From: Escherichia coli
GTDB taxonomy: Bacteria; Pseudomonadota; Gammaproteobacteria; Enterobacterales; Enterobacteriaceae
Assembly (NCBI RefSeq): GCF_030013205.1
Contig: NZ_CP122648.1
Strand: one strand, 5' to 3'
Length of the DNA stretch: 64,000 nt
A program made the position numbers. Positions 15,001 through 18,000 of the stretch are shown here, piece after piece. Position 1 is the stretch's first letter. Each line of letters begins with the position of its first letter.

Positions 15001-18000
15001 ACACAGATTTTGTCCGTGCCATACAGCGTAAAAATGAAGTGGTTAATTTTTTACGTAATAAGAATTTTCATAATCTTGCGGATATGCCCAATATCGACGT
15101 GATCGACGGCCAGGCGGAGTTTATCAATAATCATAGCCTGCGTGTTCATCGGCCTGAGGGAAATCTGGAAATTCATGGCGAGAAAATTTTTATTAATACC
15201 GGTGCACAAACCGTGGTTCCGCCAATTCCTGGAATTACCACCACGCCAGGAGTATATGACAGCACCGGATTACTTAATCTAAAAGAATTGCCTGGGCATT
15301 TAGGTATTTTGGGCGGCGGATATATTGGCGTTGAGTTCGCCTCTATGTTCGCTAATTTTGGCAGCAAGGTAACCATTTTAGAAGCAGCTTCGCTGTTTTT
15401 GCCTCGGGAAGATCGGGATATTGCTGATAATATCGCGACGATTTTACGCGATCAGGGCGTCGATATTATCCTCAATGCCCATGTGGAGCGAATCAGTCAC
15501 CATGAAAATCAAGTGCAAGTGCATAGCGAGCACGCCCAACTGGCGGTGGATGCACTGTTAATAGCTTCCGGTCGTCAACCGGCTACCGCTTCGTTACATC
15601 CAGAAAATGCCGGTATCGCAGTAAACGAGCGCGGGGCAATTGTCGTTGACAAGCGATTACATACCACCGCAGACAATATTTGGGCGATGGGAGATGTTAC
15701 CGGCGGGCTGCAATTTACTTACATATCACTGGATGATTACCGCATTGTACGTGATGAGTTACTGGGTGAAGGCAAACATAGTACTGATGATCGGAAAAAT
15801 GTGCCTTATTCCGTATTCATGACACCGCCACTGTCCAGGGTTGGTATGACAGAAGGACAGGCCAGAGAGAGTGGTGCTGATATTCAGGTGGTGACATTGC
15901 CTGTAGCTGCAATTCCCCGCGCCAGAGTGATGAACGATACCCATGGGGTATTAAAAGCGATTGTTGATAATAAAACCCAACGTATATTAGGGGCATCACT
16001 GCTGTGTGTTGACTCCCACGAGATGATTAATATAGTGAAAATGGTGATGGATGCCGGGCTGCCTTATAGCATATTACGCGATCAGATATTTACTCATCCG
16101 TCGATGAGCGAATCACTCAATGATCTATTTTCATTAGTCAAATAAACCCAAAATCAGACGCCAGGACAAATATTCTGGCGTCTCAGAGAAAAGAATCTTA
16201 TTAATTCCCTGTTATTATATAACTTCTTAATCACTTCATTGATGGTATTTTATATGTTTAAAAAACCTGTTTTATTTGCAACACTATTATCTGGCGTTAT
16301 GGCATTTTCCACCAATGCAGATGATAAAATAATTCTGAAACATATCAGCGTCTCGTCAGTATCAGCATCACCGACAGTTCTGGAGGATGCCATTGCTGAT
16401 ATAGCCAGAAAATATAATGCTTCATCCTGGAAAGTCACATCGATGCGAATTGATAATAATTCAACCGCAACAGCAGTATTGTATAAATAAGGATGTTCAC
16501 AATGGAAAAATACCTGCACCTGTTAAGTCGGGGAGATAAAATTGGCCTGACATTGATTCGTCTGAGTATTGCGATTGTTTTTATGTGGATTGGGTTATTA
16601 AAGTTTGTCCCTTACGAGGCAGACAGCATTACACCATTCGTCGCAAACAGTCCACTAATGTCGTTCTTTTATGAACACCCGGAAGACTATAAACAGTATC
16701 TGACTCACGAAGGCGAATACAAACCAGAAGCAAGGGCATGGCAATCGGCCAATAATACCTATGGTTTTTCCAACGGTCTTGGCGTCGTGGAGGTGATTAT
16801 TGCTCTGCTGGTTTTGGCTAATCCTGTCAATCGCTGGTTAGGTTTATTGGGAGGGCTGATGGCATTTACCACACCGTTGGTAACACTCTCATTTTTAATC
16901 ACCACCCCGGAGGCATGGGTACCCGCATTGGGTGACGCTCATCATGGTTTCCCTTATTTATCTGGTGCTGGTCGCCTGGTATTGAAAGATACTCTGATGC
17001 TGGCAGGTGCTGTCATGATAATGGCAGATTCGGCGCGGGAAATTCTTAAACAACGCAGTAATGAATCCAGTTCAACGTTAAAAACTGAATATTGATAATC
17101 CGAACACTGTCTGTTGTTCACTTTTTCAGGCGTCAGGCTCCCTTTCTGATGATGAAGCCTGACGCCATATTACCGGAGATATGACAGAGTGAAGATCAAT
17201 ATCACTCCCCTGTTAAAAGATTCTTGTCGTCTCAGGTAAAATAAGTGATTAATATCAATCATGTATTTTTACAGCAAGACAACCACGAACAAACTCAGGA
17301 TTAAAATGTTTTACCGATTCCCCAACATAACCCAAATCAAGCGAACTAATTTGCGCCATTTCTTTCTCTGTCAGTGAGAAATCCCAAATAGCAAAATTTT
17401 CTTCGATACGCTGTTGATGTGTCGATTTCGGAATAACGACCACTCCCCGTTGAATATTCCAACGCAGAATGACCTGAGAAATCGATTTTTGATGGGCATC
17501 TGCAATACTCTGAAGCAGATTATTTTCAAAGGGTTTATGTCGTCCACCACCTAACGGAGCCCATGCTTCAGGCTGCACGTTATAATACTTCATGGTTGCC
17601 AGCGCCTCTGATTGGGCAAAATAGGGATGCAACTCGACCTGGTTGACCATCGGTTTAACTCTTACCGTTTCACAAAAGTTCGCCAGAACATGAGGATAGA
17701 AATTGGAAACCCCAATTGCTTTTAATTTGCCCTCTTCATAGGCATCTTCGAGTGCACGCCACGCACTGAAATAATCGCGCATAGCCTGGTGCAATAAATA
17801 GAGGTCGAAGTATTCTAGTCCCGATTTTTTTAATGACGCTTCAATACCTGCTTTTGCCGTATCCTGATTCAACATATCCTGCACCCACAATTTTGACGTT
17901 ATAAATAACTCATCTCGGGTACATAAACCTTCAGATATGGCTTCACGAACGGCTTCACCGACGGCATCTTCATTACCGTATACCGCTGCAGTGTCGATGA

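What the first reader, a model, noticed from the sequence alone, without database searches (positions are those of the whole stretch)
17129..17166. GC-rich 11-bp hairpin between the convergent rclC and aldo-keto reductase genes, lacking a U tract
GGCGTCAGGCT / AGCCTGACGCC with a 16-nt loop sits between the two gene ends, but the T run lies before the stem on the + strand and is absent after it on both strands. It is more likely an RNA-stability or REP-like element than a simple terminator.
Basis: seen in the sequence. Interest (0 to 1): 0.2.

Follow-up and report, generated by a model that had tools for sequence, protein, structure and literature searches.

The report
U-tract-less hairpin ending rclC transcript
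This is a real, conserved, single-copy GC-rich RNA hairpin between the ends of the E. coli rclC and aldo-keto reductase genes; it most likely caps and protects the mRNA 3' ends after Rho-dependent termination, which is an ordinary, already described kind of element and not a REP repeat.

Summary
GGCGTCAGGCT / 16 nt / AGCCTGACGCC lies at 17129-17166, 33 nt after the rclC stop and 88 nt after the convergent aldo-keto reductase (AKR) stop. It folds far better than shuffles on both strands. About 0.3 such repeats are expected by chance in 64 kb.

No T-rich tract follows the stem on either strand, and the loop is long, so it is not a canonical intrinsic or bidirectional terminator.

It is not REP-like. 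It occurs once per genome in about 5,045 of 5,426 complete E. coli genomes, always at this junction.

Two haplotypes differ by about 20% in the flanks and 50% in the loop, but by only 1 of 20 positions in the 10-bp core stem. Loop length also differs, 16 against 18 nt. That fits a single-stranded hairpin better than a protein-binding DNA site.

rclC in Citrobacter carries a canonical terminator at the same position. Similar hairpins without a U tract follow der, suhB, yeaG, rpsA and kdsB in the same strain.

Best reading (confidence about 0.5, inferred): a stem-loop that defines and protects the 3' end of Rho-terminated transcripts, the class described by Dar and Sorek in 2018. No 3'-end data exist for this locus. 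It is a new member of a known kind and of low interest.

The parts
17129..17139 (.). 5' arm of the hairpin (GGCGTCAGGCT). The core shared by most strains is 17129-17138.
   Evidence: Read. Position 17139 is C in the K-12-type allele, which is exact in 3,706 records. Position 17130 is G>A in haplotype B2, roughly 78 genomes.
17140..17155 (.). Loop, 16 nt here, 18 nt in K-12-type alleles (10-bp stem) and in haplotype B. It is the most variable part of the element.
   Evidence: 10 of 20 alignment columns differ between haplotypes A and B, including a 2-nt indel. Further loop SNPs appear in E302, O25b:H4 and FUJ80154.
17156..17166 (.). 3' arm of the hairpin (AGCCTGACGCC). The core is 17157-17166.
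   Evidence: Read. It is invariant in all sampled alleles.
17114..17175 (.). Conserved 62-nt block centred on the hairpin (TTGTTCACTTTTTCAG-hairpin-ATATTACC).
   Evidence: Outside the loop, 2 of 44 positions differ between haplotypes A and B, against 22 of 97 in the remaining flanks (Fisher p = 0.005).
17123..17127 (+). T5 run just upstream of the stem. It reads as an A run after the stem on the - strand.
   Evidence: Read. It is not conserved: TTTGT in haplotype B and CTTTT in E686.
16502..17095 (+). rclC coding sequence, the last gene of rclABC. Its stop lies 33 nt before the stem.
   Evidence: ORF. RefSeq annotation of a strain that is 100% identical over the 231-nt query, L006 5443-6036.
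17255..18124 (-). Aldo-keto reductase (AKR) coding sequence, convergent with rclC. Its stop lies 88 nt from the stem.
   Evidence: ORF. RefSeq annotation L006 6196-7065. PF00248 on all homologues.
17247..17405 (+). C-rich, G-poor stretch downstream of the hairpin on the rclC read-through strand (antisense to the AKR 3' end). It is a candidate Rho-loading region.
   Evidence: The C/G ratio in 78-nt windows is 1.9-2.3, between about the 95th (1.8) and 99th (2.4) percentile of the window. This is composition only, with no functional data.
17188..17208 (.). Weak second inverted repeat GAGTGA-9-TCACTC. Judged not to be part of the element.
   Evidence: It appears in the folds. Its pairing is lost in strain 2D and haplotype B.

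Best explanation
The hairpin is a stem-loop that defines and protects mRNA 3' ends.

The proposed sequence of events is as follows. RNA polymerase reading out of rclC, the last gene of the HOCl-induced rclABC operon, transcribes the hairpin. With no U tract to release it, the polymerase carries on into untranslated RNA antisense to the aldo-keto reductase (AKR) gene. That RNA is C-rich and G-poor, so Rho can load there and terminate transcription diffusely. 3'-to-5' exonucleases (PNPase, RNase II) then trim the tail back to the base of the -21 to -28 kcal/mol stem, which becomes the stable 3' end.

Because the repeat is a perfect palindrome, the same DNA gives an equally stable hairpin on the AKR transcript coming from the other side. 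One element can therefore cap both convergent transcripts.

Shown here: the structure, that it is not a chance match, that it is single copy, that the stem is conserved while the loop is free to vary, that no U tract is present, and the C>G composition downstream.

Inferred: Rho dependence, exonuclease trimming, and where the 3' ends actually lie.
For: - The hairpin is stable and non-random on both strands.
- Every sampled allele keeps -21.2 to -28.4 kcal/mol on the + strand and -22.4 to -26.0 kcal/mol on the - strand.
- Between haplotypes A and B the core stems differ at 1 of 20 positions, the loop at 10 of 20 and the flanks at 23 of 121. Fisher tests give p = 0.0017 for stems against loop and p = 0.045 for stems against all other intergenic positions.
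- Loop length differs between haplotypes, which a hairpin tolerates.
- No T-rich tail follows the stem on either strand, and the scanner calls no terminator.
- A C>G stretch starts about 80 nt downstream on the + strand, with a C/G ratio up to 2.3.
- In Citrobacter europaeus rclC is followed 62 nt after its stop by a canonical hairpin plus T7. In Salmonella arizonae it is followed by a hairpin plus T6. A 3' hairpin is therefore the expected feature at this position, and the E. coli version simply lacks the U tract.
- PMC6061677 reports that E. coli Rho-dependent transcripts end just after stable stem-loops that are not followed by U-rich sequence. It also reports that rut sites lie just downstream, that PNPase and RNase II trim back to the stem, and that Rho dependence is commoner in weakly expressed genes.
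- Comparable GC-rich hairpins without a U tract sit 8-11 nt after the stops of der, suhB, yeaG and kdsB, and downstream of rpsA, in 250 kb of the same strain (with annotation).
Against: - No 3'-end data exist for this locus. The Term-seq tables of PMC7815308 list no end in the 317,300-317,899 coordinate range I estimated for the locus, only a Rho-dependent end inside rclB at 318344. The operon is silent without HOCl, so this neither supports nor refutes the explanation.
- The C>G stretch is a composition signal only.
- Stem conservation is not significant against the flanks alone (p = 0.10), because about 10-15 nt on each side are conserved too.
- A 16-18 nt loop is long for the hairpins usually described at 3' ends.
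- In K-12 and many other strains AKR is only a 129-nt remnant, so any role on that strand is moot there.
Confidence: 0.5

Rival explanations
1. It is a hairpin-driven roadblock or terminator that needs no U tract and works in both directions. The nascent hairpin pauses RNA polymerase coming from either gene. Release then comes from head-on and trailing polymerase collisions, or from NusA/NusG-assisted weak intrinsic termination. This keeps rclABC and AKR transcription from invading each other.
For: - The genes are convergent and their ends lie 159 nt apart, with the palindrome between them.
- The + strand tail AUAUUACC has 3 U in 8, so some leaky release is conceivable.
Against: - The elements studied in that work are bidirectional terminators. 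From my own knowledge these carry an A tract, a hairpin and a U tract. This one lacks both tracts in the needed orientation.
- From established knowledge of E. coli RNA polymerase, hairpins without a U tract release poorly.
- rclABC is silent unless induced, and AKR is a dead remnant in many strains that still keep the hairpin. Collisions therefore cannot be what maintains it in those strains.
Confidence: 0.15
2. It is a neutral palindrome with no selected function. It could be a leftover of the junction between the rcl operon and the AKR-ykgA-fdeC segment. Low mutation input, or template-switch repair between the arms, would keep it intact.
For: - The element is confined to the Escherichia junction. 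rclC in Salmonella, Citrobacter, Shimwellia and Serratia, and AKR orthologues in five other contexts, lack it.
- Stem conservation against the flanks alone is not significant (p = 0.10).
- No compensatory double substitution was seen in any allele.
Against: - A perfect 10-11 bp GC-rich repeat is kept across haplotypes whose loop differs at 50% and whose outer flanks differ at about 20%.
- It is retained in about 93% of complete genomes.
- It sits exactly where the relatives carry a terminator hairpin.
Confidence: 0.15
3. It is a double-stranded DNA site: an inverted-repeat operator for a dimeric regulator, or a cruciform.
For: The arms are perfect 10-11 bp repeats, and an AraC-family regulator gene lies nearby at 18339-19229.
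Against: - The gap between the 10-bp core arms is 18 nt in haplotype A and 20 nt in haplotype B, a change of about 70 degrees in helical phase. The intervening sequence is free to vary.
- It lies at the 3' ends of both genes, far from either promoter.
- The only promoter-like match nearby is at chance level.
Confidence: 0.05
4. It is a REP-like or other dispersed or mobile repeat, as the first reader suggested as an alternative.
For: It is extragenic, GC-rich and palindromic. An IS1 copy sits inside the loop in one strain and next to the element in another.
Against: - There is a median of one place per genome and at most two, at E <= 10, with 45-52 nt queries in 5,426 genomes.
- The other matches to the arm in the window lie in coding sequence and have no partner arm.
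- All E. coli-type copies in the metagenome scan carry the same rclC-side and AKR-side flanks.
- There is no Rfam hit.
Confidence: 0.02

Closest known systems
Stem-loops without a U tract at the steady-state 3' ends of Rho-dependent E. coli transcripts (Dar and Sorek 2018, PMC6061677)
   Same: A stable GC-rich stem-loop shortly after the stop codon, with no U-rich tail and a C-rich, G-poor stretch downstream. It follows a weakly expressed operon and is as stable as terminator hairpins.
   Different: No 3'-end, bicyclomycin or exonuclease-mutant data exist for this locus. The loop (16-18 nt) is long. The element is a perfect palindrome shared by two convergent genes.
Canonical intrinsic (Rho-independent) terminators, including those after rclC in Citrobacter europaeus and Salmonella arizonae
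   Same: The same position relative to rclC, about 35-70 nt after the stop, and a GC-rich stem of similar strength.
   Different: No U tract after the stem on either strand, a loop longer than the usual 3-8 nt, and no sequence homology to those terminators.
Bidirectional terminators between convergent genes (SEnd-seq work; collision model in 10.1101/2022.10.23.513370)
   Same: One hairpin-forming element sits between two convergent 3' ends and can fold on both transcripts.
   Different: The flanks are the wrong way round: a T run before the stem and no T run after it on the + strand. The window's own canonical examples have stems that begin with A runs and end with T runs, at 3280-3311 and 41832-41864.
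REP / BIME extragenic palindromes
   Same: Extragenic, GC-rich and hairpin-forming. From my own knowledge, REPs can also stabilise upstream mRNA.
   Different: It is single copy, whereas REPs number in the hundreds. It shows no similarity to any other locus. A true REP seen in the same strain, ATGCCGGAT...ATCCGGCAT at L174 2330-2363, has a different sequence.

Membership tests
Canonical intrinsic terminator | GC-rich stem of at least about 5 bp | tested here: met
   A 10-11 bp stem with 8 G/C in 11 pairs, folding at -22.9 and -26.0 kcal/mol.
Canonical intrinsic terminator | U-rich tract (about 5 or more U in 8 nt) directly after the stem | tested here: not met
   ATATTACC on the + strand (3 T) and TGAAAAAG on the - strand (1 T). 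T-tract scores are at background level, and the scanner makes no call in 16400-18400.
Canonical intrinsic terminator | Short loop (about 3-8 nt) | tested here: not met
   The loop is 16 nt here and 18 nt in most strains. Extra pairs shorten it to 7 nt only on the + strand of haplotype B.
Canonical intrinsic terminator | Factor-independent release at a defined 3' end | not testable with these tools
   This needs in vitro transcription or Term-seq under HOCl induction.
Rho-dependent 3'-end protective stem-loop (PMC6061677) | Stable stem-loop downstream of the coding sequence, not followed by U-rich sequence | tested here: met
   The class is defined in the passages read.
Rho-dependent 3'-end protective stem-loop (PMC6061677) | rut-like C-rich, G-poor untranslated RNA downstream | tested here: inconclusive
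   The + strand has a C/G ratio of 1.9-2.3 at 17247-17405, about the 95th-99th percentile of the window. The - strand reaches at most 1.71. This is composition only.
Rho-dependent 3'-end protective stem-loop (PMC6061677) | Mapped 3' end at the base of the stem, bicyclomycin-sensitive read-through, and longer tails in pnp or rnb mutants | not testable with these tools
   The Term-seq tables held for PMC7815308 show no end at the locus. The supplements of PMC6061677 and PMC9023263 are not held. PMC12207403 has no entry.
REP / BIME | Many dispersed copies per genome | tested here: not met
   A median of 1 and a maximum of 2 places per genome in about 5,045 genomes at E <= 10.
REP / BIME | Match to the REP consensus | tested here: not met
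   blastn with 45-52 nt queries finds no second locus. The comparison with the consensus itself rests on my memory of it, not on a tool.
Bidirectional terminator | Hairpin flanked by an A tract upstream and a T tract downstream, so that each strand sees a U tail | tested here: not met
   The upstream flank is TTTTTCA and the downstream flank is ATATTACC.
Any curated RNA family (Rfam 15) | Covariance-model match | tested here: not met
   There is no match over the hairpin even at E <= 10.

The most novel reading that the evidence does not exclude
The hairpin, together with the conserved 62-nt block around it, is selected as an RNA on the AKR (-) strand. Alternatively, it belongs to a small and undescribed set of hairpins with an upstream T run between convergent genes.

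Three observations leave this open. Both known stem polymorphisms keep a G.U pair on the - strand while breaking the + strand pair. The only other non-canonical perfect palindrome in the window (10219-10259, between another convergent pair) is preceded by the identical 8-mer CTTTTTCA. Both also have a small 4-5 bp stem just before the T run.
Probability: 0.05. Interest if true: 0.35.

Novelty: new member of a known kind. Interest (0 to 1): 0.12.

Why it matters
The finding matters little by itself. It adds one more case to the rule that E. coli genes without an intrinsic terminator still end in a stable stem-loop. It also shows terminator turnover at one locus: a canonical terminator after rclC in Citrobacter and Salmonella, and a hairpin without a U tract in E. 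coli.

There are two practical points. Anyone measuring or engineering rclABC expression (the HOCl response) should keep or control for this 3' element. Genome annotators should not label it REP.

Tried and rejected
- **REP-like or dispersed repeat: rejected.** The element is single copy per genome. The near-matches to the arm in the window lie in coding sequence and have no partner arm.
- **Rfam: no match.** No family matches the hairpin.
- **Small ORF: rejected.** A 30-aa TTG-start ORF at 17092-17184 spans the hairpin, but the 2-nt loop indel in haplotype B shifts its frame.
- **Second hairpin 17188-17208 and the outer helix TTCACT/AGTGAA**: not conserved in strain 2D or haplotype B.
- **A family of CTTTTTCA-plus-hairpin elements.** This was suggested by the identical 8-mer before the 10219-10259 palindrome. 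No further case turned up in 250 kb of the same strain, and the T run is not conserved among alleles of this hairpin. I treat it as coincidence or unexplained.
- **Does the hairpin belong to AKR?** AKR orthologues in five other contexts (including Enterobacter, Salmonella salamae, Klebsiella and Kluyvera) sit elsewhere and lack it.
- **Does the hairpin travel with rclC?** rclC in Salmonella, Shimwellia, Serratia, Pseudomonas and Citrobacter lacks it.
- **Scans of metagenome and viral contigs for the exact 10-bp arms**. These returned E. coli copies with the same flanks, plus unrelated GC-rich hits that I take to be chance matches or parts of heptamer arrays. They gave no evidence of a wider family.
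- **Published 3' ends at the locus: none found**. No paper discusses it.
- **Assigning the strand from the G.U pattern.** Only two events are available (p = 0.25). Haplotype B's loop extends the + strand stem instead. The question stays open.

Full report
**Observation**

GGCGTCAGGCT lies at 17129-17139, a 16-nt loop follows, and AGCCTGACGCC lies at 17156-17166.

The window is the E. coli rclR / rclABC locus. rclC ends at 17095 on the + strand. A 289-aa aldo-keto reductase (AKR) ends at 17255 on the - strand. Beyond it lie an AraC-family gene and fdeC.

A T5 run (17123-17127) precedes the stem on the + strand. After the stem the + strand reads ATATTACC and the - strand reads TGAAAAAG, so neither transcript gets a U tail.

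The hairpin folds at -22.9 kcal/mol on the + strand and -26.0 kcal/mol on the - strand. The z-scores are -5.7 and -6.5, and no shuffle folded as well.

Only five places in the 64-kb window hold a perfect inverted repeat of 11 bp or more with a 3-20 nt spacer. Shuffles give 0.29 hits on average. The feature is real and not a chance match.

**What it is not**

- The terminator scan finds nothing in 16400-18400.
- Rfam has no match, even at E <= 10.
- It is not a dispersed repeat. A 231-nt query, a 52-nt query and a 45-nt query each hit one place per genome (median 1, maximum 2-3), in about 5,045-5,062 of 5,426 complete E. coli genomes. Every sampled hit lies between rclC and the AKR gene or its remnant.
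- The six other one-mismatch matches to the arm in the window lie in coding sequence and have no partner arm.
- An exact-arm scan of metagenomes returned E. coli copies with identical flanks, plus unrelated GC-rich contigs.

The REP-like reading is therefore rejected.

**Variation within E. coli**

- The commonest allele is exact in 3,706 records. It has C at 17139, which gives a 10-bp core stem and an 18-nt loop.
- A deeply divergent haplotype B exists. ECC-1470 and 7 other genomes carry it complete. Roughly 170 more are recombinants that carry its loop.
- Haplotypes A and B differ at 7 of 33 positions in the 5' flank and 16 of 88 in the 3' flank. They differ at 10 of 20 loop columns, including a 2-nt indel, but at only 1 of 20 core stem positions.
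- Fisher tests give p = 0.0017 for stems against loop, p = 0.045 for stems against all other intergenic positions, and p = 0.10 for stems against the flanks alone.
- The flank comparison is weak because 10-15 nt on each side are conserved too. The 62-nt block 17114-17175 without its loop differs from the remaining flanks at p = 0.005.
- The other alleles sampled differ only in the loop.
- All alleles keep -21 to -28 kcal/mol on both strands.
- No compensatory double change was seen, so there is no covariation proof.
- The two stem polymorphisms (17139 T/C and 17130 G/A) both leave a G.U pair on the - strand RNA and a mismatch on the + strand RNA. With two events this is not significant (p = 0.25). 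Haplotype B's loop instead lengthens the + strand stem.
- The T5 run is not conserved: TTTGT in haplotype B and CTTTT in E686.
- A variable loop length and sequence between fixed arms argues for a single-stranded hairpin and against a dimeric DNA-binding site.

**Comparison with other genera**

- rclC in Citrobacter europaeus is followed 62 nt after its stop by a canonical terminator, GGGCCAGCAGGATGCTGGC plus T7.
- In Salmonella arizonae rclC is followed by GTCGGATGGC...GCCATCCGAC AATTTTTTAT. The simple scanner does not call this one, probably because its loop is 9 nt.
- None of these shares sequence with the E. coli hairpin.
- AKR orthologues at 84-88% identity lie in unrelated contexts without the hairpin.
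- The element is therefore specific to the Escherichia rclC-AKR junction, and it occupies the place where relatives have an rclC terminator.

**Mechanism**

Dar and Sorek (PMC6061677, read) showed four things for E. coli Rho-dependent transcripts:

- They end precisely just after stable stem-loops that are not followed by U-rich sequence.
- rut sites lie immediately downstream of those stem-loops.
- PNPase and RNase II trim the diffuse ends back to the stem.
- Rho dependence is commoner in weakly expressed genes.

This locus fits that description in structure. On the + strand a C-rich, G-poor stretch (C/G ratio 1.9-2.3, about the 95th-99th percentile of the window) begins about 80 nt past the hairpin, in RNA that would be untranslated.

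Hairpins of the same look sit 8-11 nt after the stops of der, suhB, yeaG and kdsB, and downstream of rpsA, in 250 kb of a near-identical strain. The type is commonplace.

I therefore commit to a 3'-end-defining, exonuclease-blocking stem-loop for rclABC mRNA, and symmetrically for AKR mRNA, with Rho providing termination downstream. My confidence is about 0.5. Only the structural and comparative parts are shown. Rho dependence and the position of the 3' ends are inferred.

The Term-seq tables available to me show no end at the locus. That is expected for an operon that is silent without HOCl.

**Rivals**

- A pause site or collision site for converging polymerases that needs no U tract. Confidence 0.15.
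- A neutral palindrome. Confidence 0.15.
- A DNA-level site. Confidence 0.05.
- A REP-like repeat. Confidence 0.02.

**Side lead**

The only other non-canonical perfect palindrome in the window (10219-10259, with 20-bp arms, between another convergent gene pair) is preceded by the same 8-mer CTTTTTCA. It is also single copy. A scan of a further 250 kb found no third case, and the 8-mer is not conserved among alleles of the present hairpin. I do not build on this lead.

**Verdict**

The hairpin is a new, previously undiscussed member of a well-described kind, and its interest is low.

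Noticed in passing
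window 10211-10259: A perfect palindrome with 20-bp arms and a 1-nt spacer (CTGTAAATATCCTGGCATTA c TAATGCCAGGATATTTACAG). It lies between the convergent ORFs 9455-10123 (+) and the ykgG-like gene ending at 10366 (-). It has no T tract after it on either strand. It is preceded by the same 8-mer, CTTTTTCA, as the hairpin under study. It is single copy in E. coli; the two places per genome are the palindrome matching both strands. Its function is unknown.
   Followed up: partly
window, whole: CTTTTTCA occurs 12 times on both strands, against 3.05 expected from shuffles. Two of these copies directly abut the two non-canonical hairpins. No further CTTTTTCA-plus-hairpin case was found in 250 kb of the same strain.
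   Followed up: yes
L005 about 3030-3100 (strain LB858871); L003 about 3049-3080 (strain YSP8-1): IS1 is inserted inside the hairpin loop in LB858871, with the 3' arm and the AKR region replaced. In YSP8-1 IS1 is inserted just upstream of the hairpin, with loss of everything up to ecpR.
   Followed up: partly
window 16947-17400; L041, L002, L004: Two deep haplotypes exist for the rclC 3' end, the intergenic region and the AKR 3' end. They differ by 14-21% there, against 2% over rclC as a whole. Mosaic recombinants also occur: EC01307/IAI1 carry the B-type 5' flank and loop, and strain 2D/SMS-3-5 carry the B-type loop and 3' flank. The predicted complete B haplotype was found in 8 genomes.
   Followed up: partly
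L001 3195-3323; L002 3198-3326; L041 1368-1496: In K-12/BW25113, EC01307 and ECC-1470 the AKR gene is reduced to a 129-nt 3' remnant. It is intact in this window, in the O157:H7 hits, in strain 2D and in E302. The hairpin is kept either way.
   Followed up: no
window 19286-19314, 3280-3311, 41832-41864: These are the other perfect hairpins. TAATGGCGTTGA/TCAACGCCATTA lies between the AraC-like gene and fdeC, with AT-rich flanks on both sides. Two look like canonical bidirectional terminators, with stems that begin with A runs and end with T runs (AAACCGCGCCAT...ATGGCGCGGTTT and ATAAAAATGGCGC...GCGCCATTTTTAT).
   Followed up: no
L046, L052, L053, L065, L092, L102, L120, L127, L130 and other metagenome contigs: In soil and other environmental contigs, mostly about 60% G+C, the same 10-bp arms are part of inverted arrays of degenerate heptamers related to GGCGTCA, with the complementary TGACGCC-type units on the other side. 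These form long hairpins. They are a repeat type unrelated to the E. coli element.
   Followed up: no
rclB, MG1655 coordinate 318344 (-), from PMC7815308 supplement file 2: A published bicyclomycin-sensitive (Rho-dependent) 3' end lies inside rclB under non-inducing conditions. This hints that the uninduced rcl transcript is stopped by Rho before it reaches rclC.
   Followed up: no
Related-loci result: The scan of genome contigs with RclC returned Salmonella, Shimwellia, Serratia, Pseudomonas and more distant genera, but no Escherichia or Shigella genome. Orthologues from other Escherichia species could therefore not be examined.
   Followed up: no
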